From positions 838,623 through 902,622 of the forward strand of contig OZ244148.1 in assembly GCA_965216255.1 (NCBI GenBank): a stretch of DNA of 64,000 bases, given 5' to 3'. The notes beneath the pieces are model-generated. The model was not told where the DNA came from and searched no databases. It saw nothing but the letters and a program-made list of their open reading frames with translations. Below, piece after piece: positions 49,750-64,000 of this stretch. The stretch is from Rhodothermales bacterium. GTDB lineage: Bacteria; Bacteroidota; Rhodothermia; Rhodothermales; Bin80. Within the stretch, counting starts at the first letter, position 1. Each line of letters begins with the position of its first letter. A program made the position numbers and the translations under genes.

Positions 49750-50601
49750 CTATTGTGATTCAGACAGTATCTGGCGAAGACGAGCCTCAATGATTCGTTC
49801 CCGCTGCTGTTCCCGCTGGCCCATGCGCAGGCGCAGGGCACTGAGTTCATCCTCAAGTTGGGCAACTTCGCGCCGCCGGTTCTCCTGGATCAATCTAAAG
49901 CTTTGCTCCAGCAGCGCCCGCAACTGCTGTAGCCGCATGTTTCTTTCATCCCCCTCCTGAAGGCTCCTTATTTCAAAGGCAAGCTGTATGGTCTCCTGCT
50001 CAGCATCTGATTCTTCGATAAGGCGCACATAAAGCTCACGATTGCCTGCCTGCACATCCTGGAAATAGCGCTCAACCATCGCCGAGTAGCGTTGCTGTGC
50101 CTCCTGGAAGGCTGCCTGCCATACGGCCATGGCTTCCTGCCATTCCTGCATGGATGCCTCTTGCAACTCAGCAACTTCGAAGGGCGACGCCGGATCTCCG
50201 CCCTGAACACTGGCAATTTCCTGGCGAATACCGGCGATCCGTTCATCCAATTTGACACGCTGCTCTTGCAACTTCGCGCTCTGCCTCTCGAGCTTGGCAT
50301 GGTGTTTTTCTAGCTCGGTATCGTTGGCAGGCCTAAAGCGCTGATTCGTAACGACGAAGAGCCTGCCGTTTTGCCCAAAATAGCCGACACCCCCGTCGGC
50401 GATGCTGATATCCACGCTTATATCATGCACGTCCAACCCTACCGGCCATTGCTCTTTGGGCAATACGTCCCCGTTTACGCGAACCACACCATTGCGTATA
50501 ACCAGCCTTGTGCGCTGTGCCTCCACGGACGGTGGCGCAGAGCACAACACGCATATTACTACCCAAAACACGCGCCAAGTAATTCGTCGCTGACTATTCA
50601 T
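49750..50601 (-). CDS. Secreted coiled-coil hypothetical protein
   Basis: Signal peptide; C-terminus LEQSFRLIQE..IIEARLRQIL, similar to the downstream gene. Confidence 0.75.
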   Translation of the reverse strand: MNSQRRITWRVFWVVICVLCSAPPSVEAQRTRLVIRNGVVRVNGDVLPKEQWPVGLDVHDISVDISIADGGVGYFGQNGRLFVVTNQRFRPANDTELEKHHAKLERQSAKLQEQRVKLDERIAGIRQEIASVQGGDPASPFEVAELQEASMQEWQEAMAVWQAAFQEAQQRYSAMVERYFQDVQAGNRELYVRLIEESDAEQETIQLAFEIRSLQEGDERNMRLQQLRALLEQSFRLIQENRRREVAQLEDELSALRLRMGQREQQRERIIEARLRQILSESQ

Positions 50602-50602
50602 A

Positions 50603-51109
50603 TTACCTTGAGCTTGCCGTTTCTAAGCCGTCCCTGGTGCTGGCAGCCGACAGGGAATCAAGAGACAGGACATCCTTGTCGTCCCATAGCGCAACATCGC
50701 TGCGCGCACTCAAGGCACTGATACGGCTGTGAATGTCGATTAGACTACTCGCCTCATCCCATGACAGATCTTCCTGTATCGCACTGTCAGTAAGTTGCTG
50801 TTGCTGTTCGGATTCATGTAGGACCTTGAGTACGATCACGCTGATAGTCACAGCCGCAGCCATTGCCGCAGCGTAGGTGGCTATGCGGCGCACCTTGCGG
50901 CGAGGCCGCCGGGAAGCCATGCGCGCAATGCGGTCCACAACGCGCACATCCGGCTTGGTGACAGGCCGGAGTCGCTCCAGCATACGCTTCGTTTCTCCGA
51001 GGGCAAGGTACTCGGCCTTGGTTTGCTCGTCCTCGAGAATACACTCAAGCTCGTCCGCACTGAGGATTTCACCATAGAGGTGCTGTATAAGCCGTAACCG
51101 CTTGTCCAT
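50603..51109 (-). CDS. Putative membrane-anchored anti-sigma factor
   Basis: Immediately after the ECF sigma gene; N-terminal HLYGE..LE segment and a single TM (IATYAAAMAAAVTISVIVL). Confidence 0.6.
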   Translation of the reverse strand: MDKRLRLIQHLYGEILSADELECILEDEQTKAEYLALGETKRMLERLRPVTKPDVRVVDRIARMASRRPRRKVRRIATYAAAMAAAVTISVIVLKVLHESEQQQQLTDSAIQEDLSWDEASSLIDIHSRISALSARSDVALWDDKDVLSLDSLSAASTRDGLETASSR

Positions 51110-51123
51110 ATTGCGCTGGTTTG

Positions 51124-51735
51124 TTATAGCAGGGCCGCCATTTCAGCGGGTCTCTTTTTTTTTACATCCGACCGGAGATTCGTCATCCGTCGCAGGTTTA
51201 ACAGCGCGTAGCGCATGCGCCCAAGTGCCGTATTTATCGACACGTCGGTAAGTTCGGCAATTTCACGAAACGTCAACTCTGAGTCCTGCCTGAGGAGCAG
51301 CACTTCACGCTGCTCCGTGGGCAATCGATCAATGCACTGAGTCAGCCAAACCCTCCGCTCTTTGGCAGCAAGGACTTCATCCGGGGCCGGTGCATCCGTG
51401 CTTAGCCTGTCCCAGAAACCGTCCGAACCGGCAACATCGTGCCATTTGCTGCGGCTTCGAAAATGGTCCAGCGTTGCATTGCGTGCAATCCGCATGACCC
51501 AGGCCAGGAAGCGGCCCTGCTGCGCGTACGAGCCGCGCCTCCGCTGCAGGGCATCCAGGACGCGCACGAACGTGTCCTGAAACAGGTCATCGGCCAGATC
51601 ACGGTCCCGCACCATACCCAGAAGGTAGCCGTATACGGGTTCCTGGTGCCGCTCCACAAGCCGCCGAAATGCTGCGTGGTCGCCCCGGTCAAGGTACTGC
51701 TGCACAAGTTGATCGTCCGGAGGCTGCATAGCCAT
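51124..51735 (-). CDS. ECF RNA polymerase sigma factor
   Basis: DDLFQDTF region 2, WVMRIARN..LDHFR and region 4 LTFREIAELTDVSINTALGRMRYAL. Confidence 0.93.
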   Translation of the reverse strand: MAMQPPDDQLVQQYLDRGDHAAFRRLVERHQEPVYGYLLGMVRDRDLADDLFQDTFVRVLDALQRRRGSYAQQGRFLAWVMRIARNATLDHFRSRSKWHDVAGSDGFWDRLSTDAPAPDEVLAAKERRVWLTQCIDRLPTEQREVLLLRQDSELTFREIAELTDVSINTALGRMRYALLNLRRMTNLRSDVKKKRPAEMAALL

Positions 51736-52078
51736 AGCTTGGCAATTTGGGAGCGGAAGAAGAACGCTTGGACCCATGAATTATTGTCTAGGAGCCTGTC
51801 GGACTATATGAAAACTGAATTAAATCAATCGTGACTAAGGGCTTTTTCAGTCCTAAAGGAGCTGATATTGGCTCGGAAAGTCCTTCTACAGGGTGATTCA
51901 GGATGCTTGGTAGTCTGGATTCCGGCAATACGGGCTCAATTCAGCCCCACATCTGTGAAAGCCCGACAGGCTCCTAGAGCCGGTCATACTAGCAAGGGGA
52001 ATTATAAAGAATAGTGAACCATGCATGTGATCATGCTGTATCAAGTACCCGATCAAACGGACAGGATCATGCCGAAAG

Positions 52079-53016
52079 ATGAACGTTGGAACTGCACCGG
52101 GCCGATACAGCCGTGAGGGTATCACGCTGATTCAACTCGCGCAGAAATTTCCAAGCGAAGAGGCCGCGCAAAAGTGGTTTGAGTTGGTAATGTGGCCGGA
52201 CGGCCCTACGTGTCCGCGCTGCGACGGACAGAACGTCTATGAGGGTACGCACAAGACGATGCCGTATCGTTGCCGCCCATGCAAGCGGTTCTTCAGCGTC
52301 CGCATCGGAACGCTGTTGGCCGCTTCTAACGTGCCCTTGTTGAAATGGGTATACGCCGTCTACATCGAAATGACGAGCCTGAAAGGCGTATCCAGCATGA
52401 AGTTGCACCGCGAACCTAGGTGTAAGCCAACCGACGGCGTGGTTCATGTTACAACGCATCCGCGAAGCGTTCCGGTTGGACGAACTACCAAAGTTTGAGG
52501 GCCCGATTGAAGTGTACGAGTCTTATTTCGGTGGACTTGAGCGCAACAAGCACGCGCACAAGAGAGCCAATCTGGGACGTGGGACAGTAGGCAAAACAGC
52601 CGTAGTAGGCGCTCGTGACCGCGCCACCGGCAACGTAGCGGCCAAGGTAGTGCAGCAAACGGACGGGTCTACGCTCAAGGGATTCGTGAGCGACGCTACC
52701 GCTGACGGCGCGAAGGTCTACACGGACGATGCACGTGCCTGCAAGGGGACTGCCTAACCACGAATCAGTAAAGTACTCCGTATCCGAGTACGTCAACGGA
52801 CAGGCTCACACAAACGGCGTGGAATCGTTCTGGGCCGTCCTGAAACGTGCTTATCATGGCGTGTATCACCAACTATCGCCTAAGCACCTGCAGCGCTATG
52901 TGAACCAGTTCGCCGGTAAGCACAACGTTCGGCACATGGACACCATCGACCAGATGGGACATGTGGCGGCGGCTATGGTCGACAAGCGGTTGTTGTGGCG
53001 CGAATTGACGGCGTAG
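52079..53016 (+). pseudogene. IS1595-family transposase, inactivated
   Basis: Zn ribbon CPRC..CRPC, GVSSMKLHR, KTAVVG, YTDD, HTNGVESFW and KHLQRYVNQF. +1 frameshifts near 52415 and 52745; catalytic EVDE reads EVYE. Confidence 0.9.
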
Positions 53017-53300
53017 ACGGATGCCGTTACGCAAGGAGGTTTTGTCAAGTGTCTCGTATACGGGAAAGTTGCAACCGCAATCCCGTATATTCACGTAACC
53101 AACCGCAACAAAGGTTGTTTGAGGCTATGTCCCGATCGGATGATCTCTAGGCTGGAATCAAGACGCGGTTCATGGAGCCACGTAAAGGGCGCGGCGCGAC
53201 GTGCGTAGATGATGGCATTGACTCGGATGTGACGAAGTCGTGAACTCTGATTCGTTCGCACGCCCCGTCATCGGAACTCTAGCAGCTGATTGCTGATTCC

Positions 53301-53633
53301 GTGGACGTTAGCTACTCCAATAACGACATTCGCCGGTTAGTATGTAGCGAGAGTCTCTTGAAGAAGGACTTCAATGTCCAAGTTGCCAAGAAGGTGGTGA
53401 GGTATGTAGCCATGCTGAAATCAGCACAGAGCTTGTCAGACCTTTCGCGCCAAGGCCGTTTCCATAAGCTCAATCATGATCTGAAAGACATGTTTTCGTT
53501 GAGTGTTGGGGGTGGGGTCCGTTTGATCTTCGAGCCAGACCACGATCCAATACCACGATAGCCTGACGGAGGGATTGACCGCAAGAGCGTAACGCGTGCT
53601 AGGATCGTGAAGACAGGCGACTACCATGATTGA
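53301..53633 (+). pseudogene. higB: HigB/RelE-family (killer-protein type) toxin with an in-frame amber stop at 53559-53561
   Basis: GRFHKL..D....FSLSV....RLIFEP, then *PDGGIDRKSVTRARIVKTGDYHD* in the same frame, overlapping the higA ATG. Confidence 0.75.
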
Positions 53634-54261
53634 GCTGCCATTCATAGCTGACTGGGCCGTGCGTCCTGGGGAAGTGTTGGAACTAATCATGGAAGACGAC
53701 GGCCTAACGATTCAGCAAGTGGCTGACTCAATGGACGTTAGCGATTCCGTTGTCGAACATTTGATATCGTCCGAAGAAGCGATCGTGGATCCGCCGTTAG
53801 CTGACAAGTTAGAGGTAGCAACAGGGTTCCCATCCCAATGTTGGATCAATCTTGAAAACCAGTATAGAATCGACGCAGCCAGACTAGTTTCCAAGAGAAT
53901 TGGGCTCTTTGACAACTTGGATTCATTTGTTCAAGCGGAAGGGAAATCAGCTGAATTCTTTAAGAGGGCCGCCATTGGAAGTCTAAAGCTACATGGGGAC
54001 AATGATCGTGTTCGCATGGCCGAGATATTAGCTAATGTGAAGGAGTACGTAATAATGATGGAAATCCGCGACGACAATTTGCACGTCGAGATCAGGTTCG
54101 GGCGATTCGGTGAGGCGTATGTGATTATGGGGCCAACGGTCGCTAAGCATGTAATGTCCATGACTCCTAAGAGAACCGAGAGAAAGCCAAAGACTAAGCC
54201 CGTAGACTTAACGCCAGCAATTATGGAAGCTGAGACAACCTACGCGTTTGTTTCGGTCTAG
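53626..54261 (+). CDS. higA: HigA-like HTH antitoxin with an unrecognised C-terminal extension
   Basis: RPGEVLE..MEDDGLTIQQVAD..LA.KLE..TGFPSQCWINLENQY; the last ~115 aa lack HEXXH. Confidence 0.7.
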   Translation: MIELPFIADWAVRPGEVLELIMEDDGLTIQQVADSMDVSDSVVEHLISSEEAIVDPPLADKLEVATGFPSQCWINLENQYRIDAARLVSKRIGLFDNLDSFVQAEGKSAEFFKRAAIGSLKLHGDNDRVRMAEILANVKEYVIMMEIRDDNLHVEIRFGRFGEAYVIMGPTVAKHVMSMTPKRTERKPKTKPVDLTPAIMEAETTYAFVSV

Positions 54262-54356
54262 CCCGTTAGGACTGTCGAGGCGCGGCACGTACAAGACCGG
54301 ATGAGGCTATTTGTCTCTCGATGGCGTTACCCGTCCACTCAGCGTATTCTATCCTA

Positions 54357-54887
54357 ATGGACAAAACGCGTATCCGCGCCGCGTTGGATTTCGCCCTAAC
54401 GGCCGTCACGGCATCTGCCGCCGGGATTACGATTCGGGAATCCGTCTCGGAGAGCGGAATCATGGGATCGGTCACATTACCGCCAGCCGCGTACGTGCTA
54501 GCATCCGTATTCTTGTGTTCGTTTCTGGCCTACCGTATCTGGATACCCGTAAGTGGATACGTTCGCAAACGAAAACCGTCAACGAGATTTCGTGCGTTGT
54601 ACTCGGAGCTTCAAGACGAGTGGCACAAAATCAAATTTGACCAACAAGACCGGGGATCCTCCGCCGGTCGCAACCCAGGCGATATCTACCAAGACCGTGT
54701 GTCGTTGACACGTGATTTGCTGTCATTGGGCATAGATGCGCCGCGGGATCCGGACGAAACGGTATGGTGCAATTTCGTCATTCATATTTCGACGCTTAGC
54801 AAAGCCGGAGATATCGCAAGTGCACGTAGCTCGCCCGGCGTACCGTCGTTGCTCGATATGCCGCAGGAATCGGACGACGGTTGCTAA
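54357..54887 (+). CDS. Hypothetical membrane protein (IS passenger)
   Basis: Hydrophobic N-terminal segments followed by a soluble domain; family not recognised. Confidence 0.55.
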   Translation: MDKTRIRAALDFALTAVTASAAGITIRESVSESGIMGSVTLPPAAYVLASVFLCSFLAYRIWIPVSGYVRKRKPSTRFRALYSELQDEWHKIKFDQQDRGSSAGRNPGDIYQDRVSLTRDLLSLGIDAPRDPDETVWCNFVIHISTLSKAGDIASARSSPGVPSLLDMPQESDDGC

Positions 54888-54902
54888 CGCGAGTCACTTC
54901 CG

Positions 54903-55349
54903 TTAGTATGAATGGTTATTCGTACTCCGAGACCGCAACCGTGGCGGTTTGGTCGGACGGATCGTAATCGCATACGTACGCCATGCGCCGAATCCGTTCT
55001 GGAATCGTATCTCCGAACCACCGTACGTGATCGTCCCGGTCACTTGATTCAGCCACCGCATCTGCGTCAATCGGCGTTCTTCGAATCCGGCAATCCATTC
55101 GTGTGCGAATCTCGCTTGGTCTTCATTGAGCGGCGAACACACGATACGGGGGCGCGATCGGTGACGATTGCCCCAACACGTTAGATCGCGTCGGCATTCT
55201 GCGTCAGAAGGCCCAGATGACGTTGAATCGAACTCCGATACAATCCAGGTGACAGCGGCACACGCCGCTACGACGCCTATAATCATTGCCGCAATCGCGA
55301 GACAACCGGTTTTGCGTTCTGTTTTAGTCGGCGGTTTTGGGTCGCTCAT
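54903..55349 (-). pseudogene. Single-TM hypothetical protein with a probable C-terminal frameshift
   Basis: ...ITYGGSEIRFQNGFGAW, then the protein-like tail YVCDYDPSDQTATVAVSEYE lies in another frame (ORF 54916-55098). Confidence 0.5.
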
Positions 55350-55700
55350 GTGTGATGCAAACGAAGTACACGGGTGCCGGGCCGTGAATCCGTTAGCTCA
55401 CAAAGTATTCGCGTTCGGACGAACGCCAGACGAAATGCCCTGCCTATTCGCCGACGCGGATGATCAGTCCACGTTCGAATCGGCTATCGTATTCGGCAGG
55501 TAACCCGACGTGGGCCGAAGCTTTGCTGCCAACGGATTTGACGACAATGTGCGGATTGTGAAGATTTGATGCAACTGCCCATTCGCACGCACGATTGAAC
55601 CTTACGCGACCGGGTCGCATAATGGATACGTGCCATACACTAATGTCTGATCATGTGTTCGAACAATCGGACAAAACACGAAGACAACCGCAACGAAGCC

Positions 55701-56117
55701 ATGGCGGCTTCCGGGGAAGAACGGATTCTCGCCAAGCTCGGACAGATTGAATCACGGATCGAAGAGCGTTTCGCCAAAATCGACCAACGGTTGGATGGTA
55801 TCGATCAACGGCTGGACAGCGAACTCAAAAAGATTAACGTCCGGATGGACGGTATCGACCAACAGTTGGACAAGCTAGATGCCAAGATGGACAAATCGCA
55901 CCGAATGTTGGCTGCGATATCGTTACGCGTATCCGACCACAAAGAACGGATCACGAAATTGGAGATGGCCGCACGAGACATGATGACAACGAGAAGACAC
56001 GGGACCGCGCCGAGAAACGATCGGACGTTACGGATTGGACGAAGCGTCCGGCCGCGAATCCGCGTTACGGCGGCAAGACGCCGGAAGAAGTCGTGCGGCG
56101 CATTCTACGCCCTATGA
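55701..56117 (+). CDS. Small heptad-repeat coiled-coil protein (IS passenger)
   Basis: IDQRLDG-IDQRLDS...MDGIDQQLDKLD; 21-bp DNA tandem repeat. Confidence 0.55.
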   Translation: MAASGEERILAKLGQIESRIEERFAKIDQRLDGIDQRLDSELKKINVRMDGIDQQLDKLDAKMDKSHRMLAAISLRVSDHKERITKLEMAARDMMTTRRHGTAPRNDRTLRIGRSVRPRIRVTAARRRKKSCGAFYAL

Positions 56118-56188
56118 TCCAATAGGAAATACGAGAGCTTAAATCCCGATGCCGCAAAAAGGCGTAAACAGTGGACGTTCACTATTCT

Positions 56189-57541
56189 TTATAAGTCCCC
56201 TAGCAAGTCCAGCGCCTCGCGCAAAAGATCAACACCCAGAATTTCCATGCCGTCGACCGTGAGGCCGCTCTGCAAATTGGTTCGCGGCACCACGGCCCGC
56301 TCGAACCCGAGCCTGGCGGCCTCCCGGAGCCGGGTATCCAGCTTGCTTACGCTGCGCACCTCGCCCCCCAATCCTACCTCACCGATCGCCACGCCGCAGG
56401 CATCGGCGGGCACGTCCCGCAAAGACGAACTCAGAGCCAAGGCCACCGCCAGATCGGAGGCCGGTTCGTCCAGCCGAACGCCGCCAGCCACGTTGAGAAA
56501 GACATCGTGGCCGGCAAAACCCAGGCCCTCCCGCCTTTCGAGGACAGCCAGCAGCAGCTGCAATCGCCGCAGATCAAATCCGCTCGTAGTGCGCTGCGAC
56601 GTTCCGTACGACGAGTCCGTAACCAGGGCCTGCACTTCAACCAGAACTGGCCGGGTACCCTCCATCGTGCAGGCGACGCTGGAACCGCTGCAACCGCGCC
56701 GGCGCTCTGCCAGAAAAATCTCACTTGGATTGGCGACCTCCGACAGGCCACTGCCCGTCATCTCGAATACGCCGATTTCGTTCGTGGAACCAAACCGGTT
56801 CTTGACCGCCCGCAGAATGCGGAAGCCGTGATGGCGATCGCCTTCGAAGTACAAAACCGTGTCGACAAGATGCTCCAGGAGGCGCGGACCTGCGATAGAG
56901 CCTGAGCGCGTGACGTGGCCTACTAGGAAGGTAGCCGCATCCAGCTCCCGCGCAAGGCGCAAGAGCGACGCGGCACTTTCCCGGATCTGGCTGACGCTCC
57001 CGGGCGCACTTTCCACGTCCGGCCGGTAAACCGTCTGCACCGAATCTACAATAATCACGTCCGGAGCTGCTTCTGCTGCGGCCTCCTGGATGGCCACCAC
57101 ATTGGTTTCTGCAAATAGGAGCACGTTGTTTGTGGCGCACCCCATGCGAGTGGCCCTCAGTTTCACCTGCCGGGCTGATTCCTCGCCCGTGACGTAGAGC
57201 ACGCGCAGCGGGGCCAGATAACGACCAAGCTCTGTCATCAGTGTGCTTTTTCCGATGCCGGGCTCTCCGGCCACGAGTGTCGTGGAGCCACGCATGATGC
57301 CACCGCCCATGAGCCGATCCAGTTCGCCCACACCGGTGGCAATGCGCGGCTCATCCGCCAGCTCCACCGCATCCATGGGACAGGGTAGGCCAACCCTGAT
57401 GCCGGTCCGTTGAGGCGCCGCGCTCGCTTCTTCCAGCAACGACTCCCACGTGCCGCATCCCGAGCAGCGACCTAGCCATTTGGGCGTCGCAAAGCCGCAT
57501 TCCTGACAAACGTAACGGGTTCTATTCTTTCCCATGGACAT
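56189..57541 (-). CDS. radA: DNA repair protein RadA/Sms
   Basis: Zn finger CQECG..CSGC, Walker A GEPGIGKS, KNRFG motif, Lon-like C-terminus. The last 3 codons and the stop come from the IS1595 IR. Confidence 0.96.
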   Translation of the reverse strand: MSMGKNRTRYVCQECGFATPKWLGRCSGCGTWESLLEEASAAPQRTGIRVGLPCPMDAVELADEPRIATGVGELDRLMGGGIMRGSTTLVAGEPGIGKSTLMTELGRYLAPLRVLYVTGEESARQVKLRATRMGCATNNVLLFAETNVVAIQEAAAEAAPDVIIVDSVQTVYRPDVESAPGSVSQIRESAASLLRLARELDAATFLVGHVTRSGSIAGPRLLEHLVDTVLYFEGDRHHGFRILRAVKNRFGSTNEIGVFEMTGSGLSEVANPSEIFLAERRRGCSGSSVACTMEGTRPVLVEVQALVTDSSYGTSQRTTSGFDLRRLQLLLAVLERREGLGFAGHDVFLNVAGGVRLDEPASDLAVALALSSSLRDVPADACGVAIGEVGLGGEVRSVSKLDTRLREAARLGFERAVVPRTNLQSGLTVDGMEILGVDLLREALDLLGDL

Positions 57542-57656
57542 GCCGGTAGCTCGCAGGCAACCTACGTCTTAGAATATGACACCAGTCTGTCACAGCCTGG
57601 ATTTCAGAAACATACAAGATGCACATTCATTAACTGCGCTTTTCCCGCCATCCCAT

Positions 57657-58427
57657 ATGCGAATGTTGGCCCTGCCCCAGCTGCACCTTACGCAGCCGCT
57701 TTTCAGTCTTGGTCGCTTCGCTCTTCTGTTGTCCAAGGCTTTCAGCTCGCTGGGACACTTTGGGCTTTATCGCCGAAATCTGTTCATTCAGATGGTGCGC
57801 ATCGGGATTGAATCGCTCCCGATTGTGGCCCTTGCCGCTGCCTTCTCCGGTGCCGTAACAACGGTACAGACGGCCTACCAAATCGTTAACCCCCTGATCC
57901 CGCCCGCCATCATCGGGGCGGTGGTAGTGCCCTCACTGGTGCTGGAACTGGGCGCCGTAGTGACAGCCTTTATTCTGGCCGGGCGTGTCGGGGCTCGCAT
58001 TGCGGCGGAACTCGGGACCATGCGCGTGACAGAACAGATTGATGCGCTGGAAGCCATGGGTCTAAATGCTGTCGCGTACCTGATTGTGCCCCGCGTGGTG
58101 GCCGGTATCATCATGTTCCCGGTCCTGTACATCGGGGCCGTAGTAGTGGGAATTTGCGGTGGGCTTGCGGCGGCCGACCTGACCGGGGTCGTTCCCGTCG
58201 GCGAATTCATAGAGGGTGCTCGTGAGCATTTCTTGCCTTTCGGCCCATACTTCGGACTCATCAAATCGCTCGTATTCGGCTTCGTGATCACGTCCATCTC
58301 CTGCTACATGGGATATTTTACGAGTGGCGGCGCCGAGGGCGTGGGACGCAGCACCACGTCCGCAGCGGTAACGAGCTGCGTGTACATACTCCTGGCAGAC
58401 CTAGTCCTGGCCATAGTGTTACTCTAG
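57657..58427 (+). CDS. mlaE: MlaE-family ABC permease
   Basis: IGIESLPIV, LAGRVGARIAAELGTMRVTEQIDALE and GGAEGVGRSTT. Start uncertain. Confidence 0.92.
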   Translation: MRMLALPQLHLTQPLFSLGRFALLLSKAFSSLGHFGLYRRNLFIQMVRIGIESLPIVALAAAFSGAVTTVQTAYQIVNPLIPPAIIGAVVVPSLVLELGAVVTAFILAGRVGARIAAELGTMRVTEQIDALEAMGLNAVAYLIVPRVVAGIIMFPVLYIGAVVVGICGGLAAADLTGVVPVGEFIEGAREHFLPFGPYFGLIKSLVFGFVITSISCYMGYFTSGGAEGVGRSTTSAAVTSCVYILLADLVLAIVLL

Positions 58428-58446
58428 CGCCGGTCGCCCCAGCTAA

Positions 58447-59199
58447 ATGATCAGGATCGAACACGTCTACAAGTCCTTCGACAACCACCCGGTGCTGCAG
58501 GATGTATCGCTTACCGTAGAGGAAGGCGAGACATTGGCCATCATAGGCCGTAGTGGCTCGGGCAAGAGTGTGCTCATGAAACACATCATCGGGCTCCTCA
58601 CCCCAGACCGGGGCCGGATTCTGGTGGACGGTATCGACATAAGCCTGATCACGTATGGCGAACTTCGGCGCGTGCGGCGCCAATTCGGGGTGCTGTTCCA
58701 GGGAGGGGCTCTGTTCGATTCCATGGATGCCTTTGACAACGTGGCATTCCCCCTCCGGACCTTTACGGACAAGAGCTCGGCCGAAATTCGCCATGAAGTC
58801 GAGCAATGCCTCGAAGTCGTCCAGCTTCCGGATGTCGGAAGGAAGCGGCCTTCCGAGCTGTCAGGGGGCATGCGCAAACGCGTAGCGCTGGCAAGGGCCA
58901 TTGCGCTGCGCCCACGCTACATCATCTATGACGAGCCAACCAGCGGCCTGGACCCGCAAACCTCTACCACCATCAACGACCTGATCCGCGGCCTGGCTAA
59001 CCAACTGGACATTACCAGCGTTGTAATTACACACGACATGCACTCTGTGCTCAGCATTGCCAACCGTGTGGCGTTCCTCCATGCCTCCCGCCTGCATTGG
59101 GTTGGATCGATAGGTGAGCTGCACCAGAGCGACAACGCAACCCTGCGAGCTTTTGTTAAGGCCAATGAGTACCGCATTGGCGAGCCCGCGCATTCCTGA
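58447..59199 (+). CDS. mlaF: MlaF-family ABC ATPase
   Basis: GRSGSGKS, LFQGGALFDS, LSGGMRKRVALARA and YDEPTSGLDP. Confidence 0.92.
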   Translation: MIRIEHVYKSFDNHPVLQDVSLTVEEGETLAIIGRSGSGKSVLMKHIIGLLTPDRGRILVDGIDISLITYGELRRVRRQFGVLFQGGALFDSMDAFDNVAFPLRTFTDKSSAEIRHEVEQCLEVVQLPDVGRKRPSELSGGMRKRVALARAIALRPRYIIYDEPTSGLDPQTSTTINDLIRGLANQLDITSVVITHDMHSVLSIANRVAFLHASRLHWVGSIGELHQSDNATLRAFVKANEYRIGEPAHS

Positions 59200-59211
59200 A
59201 GCATCAAACCT

Positions 59212-60126
59212 GTGAAATACGCCAACGAAGTTAAGGTAGGTCTTGTTATCGTCATCGCCGCGGTTGCCTTTTACGTAGGGACCCAGTTCTTTCGCGACCT
59301 GCCGATATTCTCCCGCAACGCCCAATACGGCACCATTGTACCCAGTGCAGCAGGACTTGTATCCGGCAATTCCGTGCTCGTTAACGGTGTCACGGTCGGT
59401 TCCGTAGACGGCGTGCAAGTTGTCGAGGGCGGCGCCAAGGTTGACTTCAACATGCGCCGTGGAATACCCCTCACGCACGGCACGAGCGTCGCCATCGAAG
59501 GATTTGGGGCCCTCGGCGACCTTCGCCTCGAAATAACGCTGGGACCGGCCGAGAGCGAACTCCACAGGGAGGGAGATACCATTCCCAATGCCGGTAACAA
59601 GATCGTGGACGAAGTCGCCGGTGGCTTGCCGGAAACGTTTGAGCGCGTCAATGCGCTTGTCGCAAGCTCGGACGGCGCCGTGGTCGCTGCGCGCGGCTTG
59701 ATGACGGACCCAACCAGCGACCTGCTTCTTGCCCTTAAGTCTGTAGGTGCAACCGCAGAGAGCCTCACCAGCCTGCTGGAGGAGCAGCGCAGCCACATCC
59801 GCAGCGTGCTCGCCGGATTCGATTCGCTCTCTCACTCCATGAATGCGCTGGTGCAGGACTCGCTGGCCGTCACGGTAACCAGACTGAACAGTGTTCTGGG
59901 TGACCTGGAAGATAGTCTGGCGTCCCTGGCCGGCGCCGCAGATGCCGTTAGTACTGTGCTCGGCATGATGGCAACAGGAGAAGGTACGCTCGGACGGCTG
60001 ATGCAGGACGACGCTCTCTACGTCGAGCTGCGCAGTGCGGTCTCTTCCATGAACAGCCTCCTCGAGGATTTCCAGGCGGATCCCAGGAAATACTTAAGGG
60101 AAATGAGACTGGTCGATATTTTCTAA
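59212..60126 (+). CDS. mlaD: MlaD/MCE-family protein
   Basis: N-terminal anchor EVKVGLV, MCE domain GLVSGNSVLVNGVTVGSV and GTLGRLMQDDALY. Confidence 0.88.
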   Translation: MKYANEVKVGLVIVIAAVAFYVGTQFFRDLPIFSRNAQYGTIVPSAAGLVSGNSVLVNGVTVGSVDGVQVVEGGAKVDFNMRRGIPLTHGTSVAIEGFGALGDLRLEITLGPAESELHREGDTIPNAGNKIVDEVAGGLPETFERVNALVASSDGAVVAARGLMTDPTSDLLLALKSVGATAESLTSLLEEQRSHIRSVLAGFDSLSHSMNALVQDSLAVTVTRLNSVLGDLEDSLASLAGAADAVSTVLGMMATGEGTLGRLMQDDALYVELRSAVSSMNSLLEDFQADPRKYLREMRLVDIF

Positions 60127-60137
60127 GGGATCCATCT

Positions 60138-60716
60138 ATGTGGCACCTGCCGCATTTCCCTGCCATGCCGACCTACGACGAAGCTCGAGACCTATTGCAC
60201 GAATGGACCGAATCGGAGAGCCTGCGGCGCCACGCCCACGCCGTGGAAGCGGCTATGGAGCACTATGCCGAGATTCTTGGCGAAGACGTTGCGCTCTGGC
60301 GCATTACGGGGTTGCTGCATGACATGGACTACGAAAAATACCCGGAGCAGCATCCGTACCGGGGAGCCAAAGAGCTGCGCGAGCGCGGCTTTCCTGCCGA
60401 GGTCATAGAGGCCATCCTCGGTCATGCGGACTATACAGGCGTCGTGCGCACGACGCTCCTGTCGAAGGCGTTGTTCGCGGTGGACGAGCTCGCCGGCTTC
60501 ATCACCGCCGTGGCCTACGTGCGACCCACGCGGCTGGTTGGCATGAAGGTGAAGTCCGTGCGCAAAAAGCTCCGGGACCGGGCATTTGCCGCCGCCGTCA
60601 GTCGCACCGACATCGAACAGGGCGCCGCAGAGCTTGGGATCGAATTGGGCGAACACATATCCAACGTCATTGTTGGCATGCAGGCGCGTGCTGCCCGCCT
60701 TGGCCTGGACGCGTAG
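60138..60716 (+). CDS. HD-domain (HDIG-type) phosphohydrolase
   Basis: LRRHAHAVE, GLLHDMDYE, ILGH and LFAVDELAG. Confidence 0.88.
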   Translation: MWHLPHFPAMPTYDEARDLLHEWTESESLRRHAHAVEAAMEHYAEILGEDVALWRITGLLHDMDYEKYPEQHPYRGAKELRERGFPAEVIEAILGHADYTGVVRTTLLSKALFAVDELAGFITAVAYVRPTRLVGMKVKSVRKKLRDRAFAAAVSRTDIEQGAAELGIELGEHISNVIVGMQARAARLGLDA

Positions 60717-60739
60717 CCCGGCCCCCTATCCGCCAGTTC

Positions 60740-61909
60740 ATGGCCAGAGACCCAGAGCAACCCTCCCATTCGAATTCTTCCGGGAGCGAGGCCGCCCTTC
60801 CTTTTTCGCCAAGCCCTAAGCGTGACCTGCGCTCACTGCTGCGCACGTACATCAACCGGCATTGGCCGAAAGAGGCGCTGGAACAAGAGCATCGCCTCGG
60901 GCCTGGGCCGAGTCCTGCGCCGACGGCCATGCGCCTCCTTCGCCTCGTGCCCTGGGGCCTGGGGCTGCTCTTTCTTTTCTCGTTTGTCTGGGACTTCAAC
61001 GACATGCACATAGAGCCTTTTGGCCACAGGCTTGTGCTGGACGGACTGCTTCTTACCATCTCCGTTAGCGGGCTTATCGGGTTTTTTACCAATTGGCTGG
61101 CGATCACGATGCTATTTCATCCGCGGCGGCGCCGGCCCATCCTTGGGCAAGGCGTTATTCCGGCACAGCGGGACCGCGTCATTCTGCGATTGGCAACAGC
61201 GGTCAGCGACCAGCTTATCAATGAGCAGACTATCAAGGAGCAGATCGAGAGCAGCGGCGTCGTCCCCAGGTACCGCGCTATCGTCCTCTCCGTCACTCAC
61301 AATGTCTTGACAGATCCCGAATTCCGCACAGAAATAAAGGCGGTCGCGGGTGAATACGTGGAAGGAATTCTGGGCTCAGAGCTGGTGCGCGGAAGAATCG
61401 TCGATCTGACCCTGCAAAAGCTTGAAGAGTTTTCGCAGTCGGGCCTTGGAGGACTCGCATTGAAGGCGTATCGCCTCTTTCAGGAGGACAAACTCAGGCG
61501 GCTTGTCGAGAACGCTGTGCAGGACCTGCCACGCTCCGTCGACGTCATGCTAGACCAGATTGACGAGCTGCTGGATGATCTGCCCGAAAGACTCGCGGAG
61601 CGATCAGCGGACATGGAAGAGTGGGCCACCAAGGCGATTCTCGGCTTTGTCCGCTCACTCGACATCTACGCCATGATTGTGGATAACATGCAGCGGTACG
61701 ACGAATATCAACTAGAAGCACTAATCAAGAATTCGTCCAATGACCAATTGAACTACATCAAGTACCTGGGAGGCGCAATCGGCACGGTGGGCGGTCTGGT
61801 GATATTCGACAAGTGGGTTGCTATCCCCATGCTCGCCGTGCTGATTGCGGGGCTTGTCCTGCTCGATTTCATGGTTTATCGCCTGCTCACCCCGGCCGCG
61901 GAGGCGTAA
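60740..61909 (+). CDS. DUF445 family membrane protein
   Basis: GLIGFFTNWLAITMLFHP, GVIPAQR and QLNYIKYLGGAIG. Confidence 0.88.
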   Translation: MARDPEQPSHSNSSGSEAALPFSPSPKRDLRSLLRTYINRHWPKEALEQEHRLGPGPSPAPTAMRLLRLVPWGLGLLFLFSFVWDFNDMHIEPFGHRLVLDGLLLTISVSGLIGFFTNWLAITMLFHPRRRRPILGQGVIPAQRDRVILRLATAVSDQLINEQTIKEQIESSGVVPRYRAIVLSVTHNVLTDPEFRTEIKAVAGEYVEGILGSELVRGRIVDLTLQKLEEFSQSGLGGLALKAYRLFQEDKLRRLVENAVQDLPRSVDVMLDQIDELLDDLPERLAERSADMEEWATKAILGFVRSLDIYAMIVDNMQRYDEYQLEALIKNSSNDQLNYIKYLGGAIGTVGGLVIFDKWVAIPMLAVLIAGLVLLDFMVYRLLTPAAEA

Positions 61910-62883
61910 GACGCGCCGGGCTCCGGCGCACTGCAAAGCACGTCCAGTACTTCGCCCTGCGATTCGGCCCCAGAAAGGCGCATGCGCAACTGGCTTGCGC
62001 ATCGGAAACCCTTGAAGTAGCCCCCGTACATACGCCGCATCTCGCGTACTCCCTTGCGCTCACCCAGCCACTGACACTTCATCCGCAGGTGTTCACATAC
62101 CACCGCCAGACGCTCCTGCCAGGACGGAGGCGGTGGAATCTGGCCGGTAGCCATGTAGGCCTTGGCGTCCCGGAAGATCCATGGATTGCCGATGGCGCCC
62201 CGACCAATCATGACCGCATCCACGCCCGTAGTTTCGAACATGCGTGCAATGGCCACCGGCGAGGTGGCATCCCCGTTGCCTAGAAGCGGCATGGTGCACA
62301 GACCATCCTCCTTTATGCGCCTGAGATAGTCCCAGCGGGCATCGCCCCGGTACATCTGCTTGCGTGTACGGGCATGCACAGCGAGCGCCTGGACACCACA
62401 CTCTTCCAGCATTTGCGCGACCCGCACTATCTCGATGCTCTCATCATCCCAGCCCAGGCGCGTTTTTACCGTAACCGGACGGGTGGCCACTTCCATTACC
62501 GCCCGCGTTATGGCCATCATCTTGGGCAAGTTGCGCAAAATGCCAGCGCCGCCATCCTTGCATACGACCTTTCTTACGGGACAGCCAAAATTGATGTCAA
62601 TGATGTCTGGCTCCCTGGCATCCACCATCTTGGCGGCGTCGCGGACCTGGCAGAGATTGCCACCAAATATCTGAATGCCCACAGGGCGCTCTTCTTCCGA
62701 GATATCGAGCTTCATGACGGAATCCGCCGCCTCATGAACAAGCCCGCCGGAAGAAATGAATTCCGTATAGACGACATCAGCGCCGTAGCGTTTGCAAAGC
62801 AAGCGGAACGGCGGGTCGGTTACATCTTCCATTGGTGCCAGCAATAGCGGCTTCGGCCCAAGGTCGATTGCACCTATCTTCAT
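61876..62883 (-). CDS. dusB: tRNA-dihydrouridine synthase
   Basis: LAPMEDVTD, DINFGCP, TVKTRLG, VHART and MIGRGAIGNPW. Confidence 0.93.
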   Translation of the reverse strand: MKIGAIDLGPKPLLLAPMEDVTDPPFRLLCKRYGADVVYTEFISSGGLVHEAADSVMKLDISEEERPVGIQIFGGNLCQVRDAAKMVDAREPDIIDINFGCPVRKVVCKDGGAGILRNLPKMMAITRAVMEVATRPVTVKTRLGWDDESIEIVRVAQMLEECGVQALAVHARTRKQMYRGDARWDYLRRIKEDGLCTMPLLGNGDATSPVAIARMFETTGVDAVMIGRGAIGNPWIFRDAKAYMATGQIPPPPSWQERLAVVCEHLRMKCQWLGERKGVREMRRMYGGYFKGFRCASQLRMRLSGAESQGEVLDVLCSAPEPGASYASAAGVSRR

Positions 62884-63000
62884 GGTACCAAGTAATTTGT
62901 GCCGCCCAACGCGCAGCCGGAAGGCACTGTTCCGGCAGGCGCATAACATTTGGCCGTCCCTTCGTATACTCAAGAGTCGATCCTTATTGCTGCCACCACC

Positions 63001-63264
63001 ATGCGAAGATTCTATTACGTCCTGCTACTCGCCTTCGCCGCGCCGTTCGTCTCGGGATGCGGAAGGAACCTCCTGGAAATGGCCACCGAATCCACGAGCC
63101 TGGGTTGCTTTGGGCTCATCATCCTCATACTCGATGTTATAGCCCTGATTGAGGTATTCGGCAGTGACCGAAACATTTCAGCCAAGGTACTCTGGGGCCT
63201 GTTTATCTTCCTTTGCCCCGTAGTTGGGGTCGTGGGCTACTATCTCTTCGGGCGCGGCCAATAG
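63001..63264 (+). CDS. Small lipoprotein with a PLDc_N-like membrane hairpin
   Basis: Lipobox VSGC; LDVIALIEV..KVLWGLFIFLCPVVGVVGYYLFGR. Confidence 0.7.
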   Translation: MRRFYYVLLLAFAAPFVSGCGRNLLEMATESTSLGCFGLIILILDVIALIEVFGSDRNISAKVLWGLFIFLCPVVGVVGYYLFGRGQ

Positions 63265-63270
63265 GACGAG

Positions 63271-64000
63271 ATGCGCTTAGGGATCCCGCTCCTTATTGCC
63301 CTGCTGGCCCCGGGCAGGTGCGACAAACCTCCCGAGACCCTGGCCCCGACCGTCGTGCTTGTATCGCTCGACGGATTCCGGGCGGACTATTTGGAACGGT
63401 TTGCGCCGCCTACGCTGCAGCGCTTGGCCGCACAAGGCGTGCGGGCCGACTTCCTCCGCGTAAGCTTCCCTTCCAAGACCTTCCCCAGCCACTATACCCT
63501 GGTGACAGGACTCTACCCCGCGCACCACGGCATAGTGAGCAATGCCATGTACGACCCCGCTACTAGCGAATCCTTCGGACTCTCGGACCGGGATGCCGTA
63601 ACGGATGCCCGTTGGTGGGGTGGGGAACCGATCTGGGTGACTCTGAGGAACGCAAAGAAGGTCGCGGCACCGTTCTTCTGGCCTGGGTCCGAGGCGCCGA
63701 TCGGAGGTAGGCTGCCGCGGTACTCCAAGCCATTTGCTTCAGACGTTCCTGCGGGCGAACGCATCGACTGGATCGTGGAGGCTCTGGCAGCGCCTGCCGC
63801 AGAGCGTCCCGTGTTCCTGACGTTGTATCTCTCCGACGTGGACGGCGCCGGCCACCGCCACGGACCGGATTCGGAAGAACTAGCGCGCGCCGTAGGGCGC
63901 GTCGACAGCCTGGTGCAGGTGCTGGCTGAGCGCCTGCGAGACTTCGGGTACGCAGACGCCGTGAACCTCATCATCACGAGCGACCACGGCATGGCCTCTA
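63271..64000 (+). CDS. Ectonucleotide pyrophosphatase/phosphodiesterase (NPP) family protein, 3'-partial
   Basis: Not in the ORF track because it has no stop. Reads MRLGIPLL..VVLVSLDGFRADY..FPSKTFPSHYTLVTGLYPAHHGIVSN..WWGGEPIW..SDHGM. Confidence 0.9.
   Translation, partial: MRLGIPLLIALLAPGRCDKPPETLAPTVVLVSLDGFRADYLERFAPPTLQRLAAQGVRADFLRVSFPSKTFPSHYTLVTGLYPAHHGIVSNAMYDPATSESFGLSDRDAVTDARWWGGEPIWVTLRNAKKVAAPFFWPGSEAPIGGRLPRYSKPFASDVPAGERIDWIVEALAAPAAERPVFLTLYLSDVDGAGHRHGPDSEELARAVGRVDSLVQVLAERLRDFGYADAVNLIITSDHGMAS

What the first reader, a model, noticed from the sequence alone, without database searches (positions are those of the whole stretch)
51989..56207. 4.2 kb IS1595 transporter element with five passenger genes and a dead transposase
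Near-perfect 23-bp IRs and an 8-bp TSD enclose the transposase and about 3.1 kb of cargo: a HigBA-like pair, a membrane protein, a single-TM protein and a coiled-coil protein. Passenger-carrying IS1595 derivatives are known, but this cargo set is not one I recognise. The transposase has two +1 frameshifts and a D-to-Y change at the first catalytic Asp, while the ends are intact, so it could still move in trans.
Basis: partly seen in the sequence, partly recalled or inferred. Interest (0 to 1): 0.65.

Follow-up and report, generated by a model that had tools for sequence, protein, structure and literature searches.

The report
Dead cargo-carrying IS1595 insertion sequence
This is a real but long-dead 4.2 kb "transporter" insertion sequence of the IS1595 family, stuck at the last codon of the radA gene of a Rhodothermales-like bacterium. 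Its transposase, its toxin gene and several other genes are decaying, so it is an ordinary new member of a known kind of mobile element.

Summary
Two 23-bp inverted repeats (22/23 matching) and an 8-bp duplication CTAGCAAG bracket 4,203 bp. Inside are an IS1595-type transposase broken by two 1-nt insertions and a Tyr in place of the first catalytic Asp.

The element sits in the last codon of radA. Two relatives have radA directly followed by the ECF sigma gene, with no IS and no cargo.

A sibling strain about 2% diverged carries the same insertion at the same site, with three more ISs nested in the dead transposase gene. Synonymous divergence of the cargo equals that of host genes (0.033 vs 0.034), so the insertion predates the strain split. 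Cargo pN/pS is 0.56 against 0.21 for host genes, which means near-neutral decay.

The HigB-like toxin was knocked out independently in each lineage. Two of the five "passengers" are doubtful ORFs.

About 20 relatives, mostly from sponge metagenomes, are 2-5.5 kb cargo carriers, mainly of restriction-modification and toxin-antitoxin genes. One is an intact 5.5 kb sister in the sibling strain with an IR identical to this one.

Movement in trans is conceivable, but nothing shows it. Verdict: new member of a known kind, modest interest.

The parts
51989..51996 (.). Left copy of the 8-bp target-site duplication CTAGCAAG
   Evidence: Removing the element and one copy restores a RadA tail ...LDLLV*, of the same length as relatives' ...LDLLL* and ...LDVLL*.
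51997..52019 (+). IR-L, GGGAATTATAAAGAATAGTGAAC
   Evidence: It is 23/23 identical to IR-R of the intact sister element in L087 and unchanged in sibling strain L085.
52079..53016 (+). IS1595-family transposase pseudogene (stitched 311 aa). It has 1-nt insertions near 52414-52418 and 52745-52752, and Tyr146 (TAC 52515-52517) in place of the first catalytic Asp.
   Evidence: The first frameshift is absent in L085, which reads CAC CGA GAC CTA GGT = HRDLG. The second frameshift and Y146 are shared by both lineages.
53301..53632 (+). HigB/RelE-like toxin pseudogene (110 codons), with a TAG nonsense codon at 53559-53561 replacing Leu
   Evidence: Pfam PF05015 scores 26.4 bits against a cut-off of 27. 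The read-through ends ...DYHD* and overlaps the HigA ATG. The codon is TTG in the sibling strain and Leu in the intact L084 orthologue. The sibling strain instead has a 13-bp tandem duplication after 53538.
53626..54261 (+). HigA-like antitoxin: an HTH domain (residues ~12-86) plus a 125-aa C-terminal extension of unknown fold. The ORF is intact.
   Evidence: TIGR02607 gives E 2.3e-8, at 33.7 bits below the 47.7 cut-off. PDB HigA 2icp matches at E 7e-4. Only 4 full-length relatives were found. pN/pS is 0.49.
54321..54887 (+). 188-aa protein with two hydrophobic segments and a conserved C-terminal domain. It belongs to a small uncharacterised family. The ORF is intact in both lineages.
   Evidence: Exhaustive HMMER found 14 relatives; alignment A4. 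One relative lies among defence-type genes in L086. pN/pS is 0.61.
54903..55349 (-). 148-aa ORF with an N-terminal hydrophobic segment. Doubtful or decayed gene.
   Evidence: No family hits. The sibling strain has +G after 55224 and a Cys71-to-stop change.
55430..55558 (+). Clade-associated non-coding motif (core 55481-55514), found upstream of the right-end accessory genes in sister elements
   Evidence: It is multi-copy in the metagenomes, in 10-17 contigs per run with unrelated flanks. Copies occur in L061 and twice, inverted, in L087. There is no Rfam match and no stable fold.
55653..56117 (+). 154-codon coiled-coil ORF. Only about 55653-55985 looks like real coding sequence; the Arg-rich tail is an out-of-frame read of the small ORF.
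   Evidence: There are 0 synonymous and 5 non-synonymous differences to the sibling strain. It shows no homology to the TM-coiled-coil protein of sister elements.
55991..56167 (+). Remnant of the clade-conserved small ORF, with the motif P-A-x-N-P-R-Y-x-G-K-T-P-E-E-V-V-R. The start codon is lost (GAG where the sister has ATG) and there is a TAG at 56123-56125.
   Evidence: The TAG is CAG in X3, X4, X6 and L085. In intact relatives its stop lies 0-11 nt from IR-R.
56177..56199 (-). IR-R, with one mismatch to IR-L
56200..56207 (.). Right copy of the target-site duplication CTAGCAAG
56189..57541 (-). radA, the host gene hit in its last codon. It now ends ...LLGDL* using a stop codon inside IR-R.
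   Evidence: pN/pS is 0.03.

Best explanation
This is a single-copy, fixed and decaying transporter insertion sequence (tIS) of the IS1595 family.

Inferred history. A zinc-ribbon/DDE transposase once recognised the 23-bp terminal repeats. It inserted the whole unit, duplicating 8 bp, into the last codon of radA in a Rhodothermales-like bacterium. This separated radA from the downstream ECF sigma gene.

Layout. The unit follows the plan of its clade: IRL - tnp - cargo slot - conserved upstream motif - accessory gene(s) - small basic ORF - IRR. Here the slot holds a HigBA-like toxin-antitoxin pair and a small membrane protein. The TA pair probably acted as an addiction module that helped the insertion persist (inferred).

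Decay. The transposase was already dead (Asp146 to Tyr plus one frameshift) in the common ancestor of two strains now about 3% apart at synonymous sites. Since then each lineage has added its own damage:
- Window lineage: a second transposase frameshift, a TAG in the toxin, and a TAG in the small ORF.
- Sibling lineage: a 2-bp insertion in tnp, a 13-bp duplication in the toxin, a frameshift and a nonsense codon in the 148-aa ORF, and three nested ISs in tnp.

The element now behaves as nearly neutral DNA. Its ends are intact and match those of an intact sister element, so trans-mobilisation is possible but undemonstrated.
For: - Ends, TSD and domains.
- Catalytic Asp to Tyr and frameshift positions.
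- Empty orthologous loci, with MlaE-radA-sigma and gaps of 151 and 63 bp, and no tblastn hit to tnp or cargo.
- The RadA tail is restored by removing the element.
- Same insertion, same IRs and same TSD in the sibling strain (L085; runs X4 and X6), at 98.2% identity, with nested IS256-like/IS3-like and IS630-like insertions.
- pS is 0.033 for cargo and 0.034 for host genes. pN/pS is 0.56 against 0.21 (Fisher p = 0.0014). Cargo is not distinguishable from neutral (p = 0.07).
- Independent toxin knock-outs.
- Clade architecture and cargo of about 20 sister elements (methylases, BglII/EcoRV/NotI-type nucleases, type I M+S, YafQ, SocA).
- Intact sister element with TSD CAATCAAA and an identical IR.
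- tIS are a recognised class in the IS1595 family: 10.1101/2021.05.26.445724, PMC5704250. Family definition: PMC8101967.
Against: - No second copy of this element with the same cargo was found, so joint movement of cargo and ends rests on the IR/TSD geometry and on analogy with sisters.
- The substitution counts are small (53 changes in cargo), so weak purifying selection on HigA or the 188-aa gene cannot be excluded.
- The HigB and HigA assignments fall below the curated family cut-offs. The intact L084 toxin orthologue gets no Pfam hit.
- The host taxon is inferred only from RadA relatives at 61-76% identity.
Confidence: 0.85

Rival explanations
1. The element is a non-autonomous but still mobile tIS. 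The intact sister transposase in the same genome (P0004/P0261 type) recognises the identical IRs and moves it in trans.
For: - The IRs are intact in both lineages.
- IR-R of the sister element in L087 is 23/23 identical to this IR-L, and its transposase is intact and has a TSD.
- P0004, in the same 90% cluster, lies on a contig of 5,408,441 bp, the same length as the contig carrying the window's own HigA.
Against: - There is only one IR pair in the window.
- In runs X1 and X2 one contig of uniform depth joins the cargo to radA.
- The site is the same in both lineages after about 3% synonymous divergence.
- No empty-site joint appeared in 8 runs.
- In the sibling strain the element has grown to about 8.2 kb through nested ISs.
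- Many DDE transposases act preferentially in cis (general knowledge; not tested here).
Confidence: 0.1
2. The cargo did not arrive with the IS. A plain IS (tnp + motif + small ORF) inserted at radA, and the HigBA/membrane-protein block (about 53017-55430) was inserted into it later at this locus.
For: - The cargo lies exactly between tnp and the conserved motif, the same slot that varies among sisters. L061 is a 2.08-kb form without extra cargo.
- The HigBA pair exists elsewhere without any IS1595 element (L082-L084).
Against: - pS of the cargo equals that of the flanks, and both lineages share the cargo, so any such event also predates the strain split.
- No repeats or second TSD bracket the block.
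- Sisters with different cargo in the same slot have their own TSDs at other sites, which shows that loaded elements do transpose.
Confidence: 0.1
3. Part of the relic has been domesticated: HigA and/or the 188-aa membrane protein are kept for a host function such as regulation, anti-addiction or defence.
For: - Both ORFs are uninterrupted in both lineages, while the neighbouring ORFs are broken.
- Orphan HigA next to a degraded toxin recurs in L082 and L083.
- A relative of the 188-aa protein lies among defence-type genes.
Against: - pN/pS is 0.49 and 0.61 on 11 and 16 changes. That is well above the host value of 0.21 and not distinguishable from neutral.
- No family or structure match gives either a function.
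Confidence: 0.15

Closest known systems
IS1595-family transporter ISs (tIS), e.g. tISCpe8 and MTnSag1, and the 'ISNwi1 + passenger' group of ISfinder
   Same: One Zn-ribbon/DDE IS1595-type transposase, ~23-25-bp terminal IRs, an 8-bp TSD, and non-transposition genes inside the IRs (PMC5704250; 10.1101/2021.05.26.445724). The IR start GGGAATTAT fits the ISNwi1-group consensus ggnnatTAT, and 4.2 kb falls in that group's 1.75-4.75 kb range. Both figures are recalled from ISfinder and were not checked here.
   Different: The cargo is a TA pair and a small membrane protein rather than lincosamide resistance and mobilisation genes. The transposase is only 75% identical to its closest intact relative. 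This copy is a pseudogenised fossil. The clade also carries a conserved small ORF next to IR-R; I recall no description of such an ORF, but I could not check ISfinder.
Toxin-antitoxin pairs carried inside Tn3-family transposons (PMC7157771)
   Same: A type II TA module sits inside a transposon next to the transposition genes, plausibly stabilising the element.
   Different: The transposon family and mechanism differ. Here the TA pair occupies a variable cargo slot that holds restriction-modification genes in sister elements. The toxin is inactivated.
HigBA type II toxin-antitoxin systems
   Same: The toxin comes first, and the stop and start overlap. The HigA-type HTH matches TIGR02607 (E 2.3e-8) and PDB HigA 2icp (E 7e-4). 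The toxin has a sub-threshold PF05015 hit and a ...DYH tail.
   Different: Both proteins score below the curated cut-offs. The antitoxin has a 125-aa C-terminal extension of unknown fold, seen in only 4 relatives. The toxin carries a nonsense codon.
Erosion of chromosomal TA systems (PMC13617665) and generic IS pseudogenisation
   Same: The toxin is lost first and independently in two lineages, and an orphan antitoxin remains.
   Different: None in principle; this is a textbook instance.

Membership tests
IS1595 family | Transposase with an N-terminal zinc-ribbon domain (Zn_ribbon_IS1595) | tested here: met
   PF12760 scores 38.4 bits against a cut-off of 25.4 and 36.4 bits on the stitched protein. 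Feature as stated in PMC8101967.
IS1595 family | C-terminal DDE_Tnp_IS1595 catalytic domain | tested here: met
   PF12762 scores 112.8 bits on the stitched protein. There are 7,994 relatives with E <= 1e-20, the best at 75% identity.
IS1595 family | Terminal inverted repeats flanked by an 8-bp target duplication | tested here: met
   The IRs match at 22/23 and the TSD is CTAGCAAG. The site is empty in relatives.
IS1595 family | Intact catalytic triad and open reading frame (autonomy) | tested here: not met
   Asp146 is replaced by Tyr and there are two 1-nt insertions. It is a member by descent but not an active copy.
ISNwi1 subgroup of IS1595 | IR consensus ggnnatTAT, 8-bp DR and a DDE-K type motif (criteria recalled from ISfinder / Siguier et al. 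2009) | tested here: inconclusive
   The IR begins GGGAATTAT. The third acidic residue is E248, with K255 seven residues later. The criteria could not be verified in the held library, and no ISfinder reference sequences were available for a tree.
Transporter IS (tIS) | IS-like unit (one transposase, IRs, TSD) that encloses passenger genes | tested here: met
   3.16 kb of non-transposase DNA lies between tnp and IR-R. Definition.
Transporter IS (tIS) | Cargo demonstrably moves with the ends (same unit at more than one site) | tested here: not met
   Only one copy and one site were found. Loaded sister elements with their own TSD, such as L087, show the clade does this.
HigBA type II TA | HigA-family HTH antitoxin at the curated threshold | tested here: not met
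   TIGR02607 scores 33.7 bits, below the 47.7 cut-off, although E is 2.3e-8. PDB HigA hits have E 7e-4 to 0.06. There is real similarity, but it is sub-threshold.
HigBA type II TA | RelE/HigB-fold toxin at the curated threshold | tested here: inconclusive
   PF05015 scores 26.4 bits against 27. The L084 orthologue has no hit, and there is no PDB sequence hit. The AF2 model has pLDDT 56 and is unusable.
HigBA type II TA | Toxin upstream of the antitoxin, with coupled (overlapping) genes | tested here: met
   The read-through toxin stops at TGA 53630-53632 and the antitoxin ATG is at 53626-53628. L084 has the same arrangement.

The most novel reading that the evidence does not exclude
The clade this fossil belongs to may have an undescribed conserved right-end module with three parts:
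- an ~80-130-nt motif;
- a ~55-aa basic protein (P-x-N-P-[RFY]-Y-x-G-x-T-P-x-x-V, ending in a Lys/Arg-rich tail) whose stop codon abuts IR-R;
- often a ~200-aa TM/coiled-coil protein.

Under this reading the module acts as a transposition accessory or regulator. It also marks the slot, between tnp and the motif, where restriction-modification and toxin-antitoxin cargo is captured. That would make these elements a dedicated shuttle for addiction and defence genes in sponge-associated bacteria.
Probability: 0.3. Interest if true: 0.5.

Novelty: new member of a known kind. Interest (0 to 1): 0.3.

Why it matters
By itself this is a routine annotation result: a dead tIS at the 3' end of radA.

It is still a clean natural record of how a loaded IS dies. 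The transposase went first. The toxin was then lost twice independently, the rest drifted neutrally, and further ISs nested in the corpse.

The wider clade is more useful. About 20 elements of 2-5.5 kb share IRs of the form GGG(A/G)ATTATAAA, a variable cargo slot filled mostly with restriction-modification and TA genes, and a conserved small ORF at the right end. This gives a concrete set for asking how IS1595-type elements capture cargo, and whether the small protein controls transposition.

Tried and rejected
- IR scan of representative genomes. An exact 18-mer of the IR gave 16 single hits in AT-rich genomes, none next to an IS1595 transposase.
- Exact-protein look-ups of window proteins (HigA, sigma factor) and of P0004 found nothing on record.
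- Second transposase remnant. I suspected a second, inverted remnant under the 148-aa ORF, because colinear tblastn hits had E 0.01-0.1. An HMM built from 120 relatives scores about 0 bits there, so I rejected the idea.
- The 55435-55514 motif as a transposase C-terminal tail or a tRNA-like/structured RNA. There is no significant peptide match, no Rfam hit and z-scores of -0.15 to -0.75. Rejected; it is a clade-associated upstream sequence of unknown role.
- The coiled-coil ORF as a relative of the TM-coiled-coil protein of sister elements: no similarity.
- Structure models. The HigA model is confident only in the HTH (C-terminal domain pLDDT below 50). The truncated HigB model has pLDDT 56. 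I ran no fold search because the matches would be meaningless.
- PDB sequence searches for the 188-aa protein and for HigB found nothing.
- PADLOC gave no credible defence-family hit for any cargo protein.
- The ISNwi1 subgroup table is not in the held literature.

Full report

Yes. The region holds one long inverted repeat. IR-L is 51997-52019 (GGGAATTATAAAGAATAGTGAAC) and IR-R is 56177-56199, with one mismatch. These are the only two matches in the 64-kb window at up to 3 mismatches, against 0 expected by shuffling. Each end is abutted by CTAGCAAG, at 51989-51996 and 56200-56207. G+C is 0.47-0.58 inside and 0.60-0.65 in the flanks.

**2. The transposase**

Three consecutive frames (52079-52414, 52416-52748, 52741-53016) carry Pfam Zn_ribbon_IS1595 and DDE_Tnp_IS1595. 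The stitched 311-aa protein scores 112.8 bits for the DDE domain. It has thousands of relatives, the closest intact one at 75% identity.

In an alignment with 12 relatives the window has Tyr146 (TAC 52515-52517) where all others have Asp, in the motif VEV-D-E. It also has Cys222 for a near-invariant Tyr and Thr169 for Pro.

Contigs of related transposases in public runs lack one base at 52414-52418 and one at 52745-52752. Both frameshifts are therefore 1-nt insertions in the window.

**3. Where it sits**

The minus-strand gene 56189-57541 is radA. Its stop codon lies inside IR-R, and the protein ends ...LLGDL*. Removing the element and one TSD copy gives ...LDLLV*. That has the same length as the RadA tails of the two nearest relatives with a different sequence...LDLLL* and ...LDVLL*.

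In those relatives (RadA 73% and 76% identical) the order is MlaE - radA - ECF sigma, with 151 and 63 bp between radA and the sigma gene. tblastn finds neither the transposase nor any cargo there.

Named RadA relatives are Rhodothermaceae, Rhodothermales and Bacteroidota MAGs at 61-67% identity. The host is therefore an unnamed Rhodothermales-like bacterium. This is an inference.

**4. A sibling strain shows that the element is an old fossil**

Public runs X1 and X2 hold the window sequence almost identically. Runs X4 and X6, from another study, hold a diverged copy.

The same variant was retrieved as locus L085. It is 98.2% identical to window 50180-64000 and carries the same IRs and TSD at the same site. 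It also has:
- a 2,750-bp IS256-like insertion with a nested IS3-like element and a 9-bp TSD GCGCAAAAG;
- a 1,217-bp IS630-like insertion at a TA.

Both lie inside the dead transposase gene.

Lineage-specific damage is as follows.
- L085 reads CAC CGA GAC CTA GGT (HRDLG, the family consensus) where the window has its first frameshift. That frameshift is therefore specific to the window lineage.
- The second frameshift and Tyr146 are shared by both lineages.
- L085 has an extra AC after 52939.

No contig in 8 runs joins 51996 to 56200, so there is no sign of an empty site. In X1 and X2 a single 22-kb contig of uniform depth links the cargo to radA, which indicates a single copy.

**5. Selection**

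I compared the window with L085 by the Nei-Gojobori method.

| Set | Synonymous changes | Non-synonymous changes | pS | pN/pS |
|---|---|---|---|---|
| radA | 12 | 1 | 0.033 | 0.03 |
| Nine host genes pooled | 66.5 | 41.5 | 0.034 | 0.21 |
| Five cargo ORFs pooled | 18.5 | 34.5 | 0.033 | 0.56 |

Cargo differs from host genes (Fisher p = 0.0014) and is not distinguishable from neutral (p = 0.07). Equal pS means the element was already present in the common ancestor. The high ratio means little or no constraint since then.

**6. The 'five passenger genes'**

(a) *HigB-like.* The ORF 53301-53561 stops at TAG 53559-53561. Reading through gives 110 codons ending ...KTGDYHD*, whose TGA overlaps the ATG of the next gene. 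The codon is TTG in the sibling strain and Leu in the intact orthologue in L084 (...IPRLPDGG...). The sibling strain instead carries a 13-bp tandem duplication after 53538 that shifts the frame. The toxin was therefore inactivated twice, independently. Family support is weak: PF05015 scores 26.4 bits against a cut-off of 27, the L084 orthologue gets no hit, and there is no PDB sequence hit.

(b) *HigA-like* (53626-54261, 211 aa). The N-terminal HTH matches TIGR02607 (E 2.3e-8, below the cut-off) and solved HigA structures (2icp, E 7e-4). The 125-aa C-terminal extension has unknown fold (AF2 pLDDT below 50). Only four full-length relatives exist among 5.8 billion proteins. Three of their loci were read and none has an IS1595 transposase or the other cargo. 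L082 and L083 keep only a toxin remnant, while L084 has an intact partner. The pair is therefore an independent module.

(c) *188-aa protein* (54321-54887). It has two hydrophobic segments and a conserved C-terminal domain. An exhaustive search found 14 relatives. One lies among MqsA, DUF499, DUF1156 and AAA_15 genes. The ORF is intact in both lineages.

(d) *148-aa ORF* (54903-55349, minus strand). No family hits. It is frameshifted and nonsense-mutated in the sibling strain. Doubtful gene.

(e) *Coiled-coil ORF* (55653-56117). Only low-complexity coiled-coil hits. It shows 0 synonymous and 5 non-synonymous changes. Its Arg-rich tail overlaps, out of frame, a conserved small ORF.

**7.

Frame 2 of 55991-56167 encodes ...EKRSDVTDWTKRPAANPRYGGKTPEEVVRRILRPMIQ*EIRELKSRCRKKA*.

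Close relatives have an intact 52-69-aa ORF of the same sequence type. Its stop lies 0-11 nt from IR-R in L017, L041, L061 and L087. L055 also has the ORF, but its IR-R was not located. More distant relatives have a weaker match on the opposite strand just after tnp.

In the window the start codon is gone (GAG where L087 has ATG). A TAG at 56123 interrupts the ORF, where other lineages have CAG.

Upstream lies a ~130-nt motif (55430-55558, core 55481-55514). It is multi-copy in these metagenomes with unrelated flanks. It recurs downstream of tnp in L061 and as two inverted copies upstream of the two accessory genes in L087. It matches no Rfam family and has no unusual fold.

L041, L055, L061 and L087 also share a ~200-aa TM/coiled-coil protein that the window lacks. 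L061 is the minimal form at 2.08 kb: IRL - tnp - motif - TM/CC gene - small ORF - IRR.

**8. Sister elements**

A metagenome scan with the stitched transposase returned 64 loci. Many are from accessions MKWU and LXNI, which are marine sponge metagenomes (PMC5099237, PMC5649159).

About 20 of these loci have IRs of the type GGG(A/G)ATTATAAA... spanning 2.0-4.05 kb, so cargo is the rule in this clade. The cargo includes:
- N6_N4 methylases, often fused to HNH;
- BglII-, EcoRV- and NotI-type nucleases;
- a D12 methylase;
- type I M+S subunits;
- YafQ toxin and SocA/Panacea antitoxin;
- an SNase-type nuclease.

The sister with the closest transposase among those retrieved (L017, 75%) is 2.8 kb, with a methylase-like protein carrying an NPPW motif and a 216-aa partner.

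In the same assembly as L085, locus L087 holds an intact sister of 5,474 bp. Its IRL is GGGAATTATAAAGCATAGTGAAAC. Its IRR is GGGAATTATAAAGAATAGTGAACG, identical to the window's IR-L over 23 nt. It has a perfect 8-bp TSD CAATCAAA and an uninterrupted 325-aa transposase, 73% identical to the dead one.

A protein of the same 90% cluster (P0004) lies on a 5,408,441-bp contig. That is the same length as the contig carrying the window's own HigA. The window's genome therefore very probably has this sister too. This is an inference.

**9. Interpretation**

[quoted passage not shown] Known examples are tISCpe8 and MTnSag1 (PMC5704250). The family features are given in PMC8101967.

The IR start GGGAATTAT and the size fit the 'ISNwi1 + passenger' group as I recall it from ISfinder. 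I could not verify this.

The copy is dead, single, fixed and decaying. The TA cargo fits the addiction/defence theme of its sisters and of TA pairs in Tn3-family transposons (PMC7157771).

Trans-mobilisation by the sister transposase is mechanistically plausible, but no data here support it.

**10. Verdict**

This is a new member of a known kind, with interest about 0.3. The most novel thread is the conserved right-end module of the clade, which deserves an ISfinder check and a simple transposition assay.

Noticed in passing
window 55991-56167 (+); L017 10526-10683; L041 4681-4848; L055 4946-5125 and 497-252 (-); L061 11812-11991; L087 13160-13369: A conserved ~55-aa basic ORF with the motif P-x-N-P-[RFY]-Y-x-G-x-T-P-x-x-V. 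In the relatives with a defined IR-R (L017, L041, L061, L087) its stop lies 0-11 nt from IR-R. In more distant relatives a weaker match lies on the opposite strand just after tnp. No Pfam family matches. It is broken in the window.
   Followed up: yes
window 55430-55558 (core 55481-55514); L061 ~11040-11080; L087 12587-12700 (-) and 13031-13119 (+): A short conserved non-coding motif, present in 10-17 contigs per metagenome run with unrelated flanks. In sister elements it lies upstream of the right-end accessory genes. It has no Rfam match and no stable structure. A promoter or regulatory role is only a guess.
   Followed up: partly
L085 (sibling strain), equivalent to window 52165-52174 and 52416-52419: The dead transposase gene has been hit by three further ISs: an IS256-like element with a 9-bp TSD GCGCAAAAG and a nested IS3-like element, and an IS630-like element at a TA. 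This suggests the genome is rich in ISs.
   Followed up: yes
L087 7929-13402: An intact 5.47-kb sister tIS with TSD CAATCAAA, a nested IS4/IS5-like transposase gene, and divergently arranged accessory genes each preceded by a copy of the motif.
   Followed up: yes
L041 3961-4605, L055 4342-4923, L061 11198-11827, L087 11639-12268 (-): A ~200-aa protein family (TM helix, short coiled coil, and a conserved C-terminal domain ending ...ELRD.LL) is shared by four sister elements just upstream of the small ORF. No Pfam family matches. The window has no copy.
   Followed up: partly
L017 2442-5984 and 13355 onward: Next to the 2.8-kb sister element lie a 1,180-aa protein combining Prok-E2_A, ThiF, Prok-JAB and Patatin domains, and a Type ISP restriction enzyme. 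The neighbourhood looks like a defence island.
   Followed up: no
L086 1746-12519: The closest relative of the 188-aa cargo protein sits among MqsA antitoxin, DUF499, DUF1156 and AAA_15 genes, which are typical defence-island content.
   Followed up: partly
window 30255-30394 (-): Rfam match to group II intron domains D1-D4 (RF02003, 80.5 bits), so another mobile element lies elsewhere in the window.
   Followed up: no
window 51787-51805 and 51960-51978: A 19-nt inverted repeat (95% matching) in the radA-sigma intergenic region just left of the element. Contigs of runs X1 and X2 break at both arms, and the 190-nt piece between them has about twice the flanking depth.
   Followed up: no
window 53283-53318 vs 53713-53748: A 36-nt direct repeat (75% matching). 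The first codons of the toxin ORF (QLIADSVDVSYS) resemble the HTH of HigA (QQVADSMDVSDS). This may be chance or a small internal duplication.
   Followed up: no
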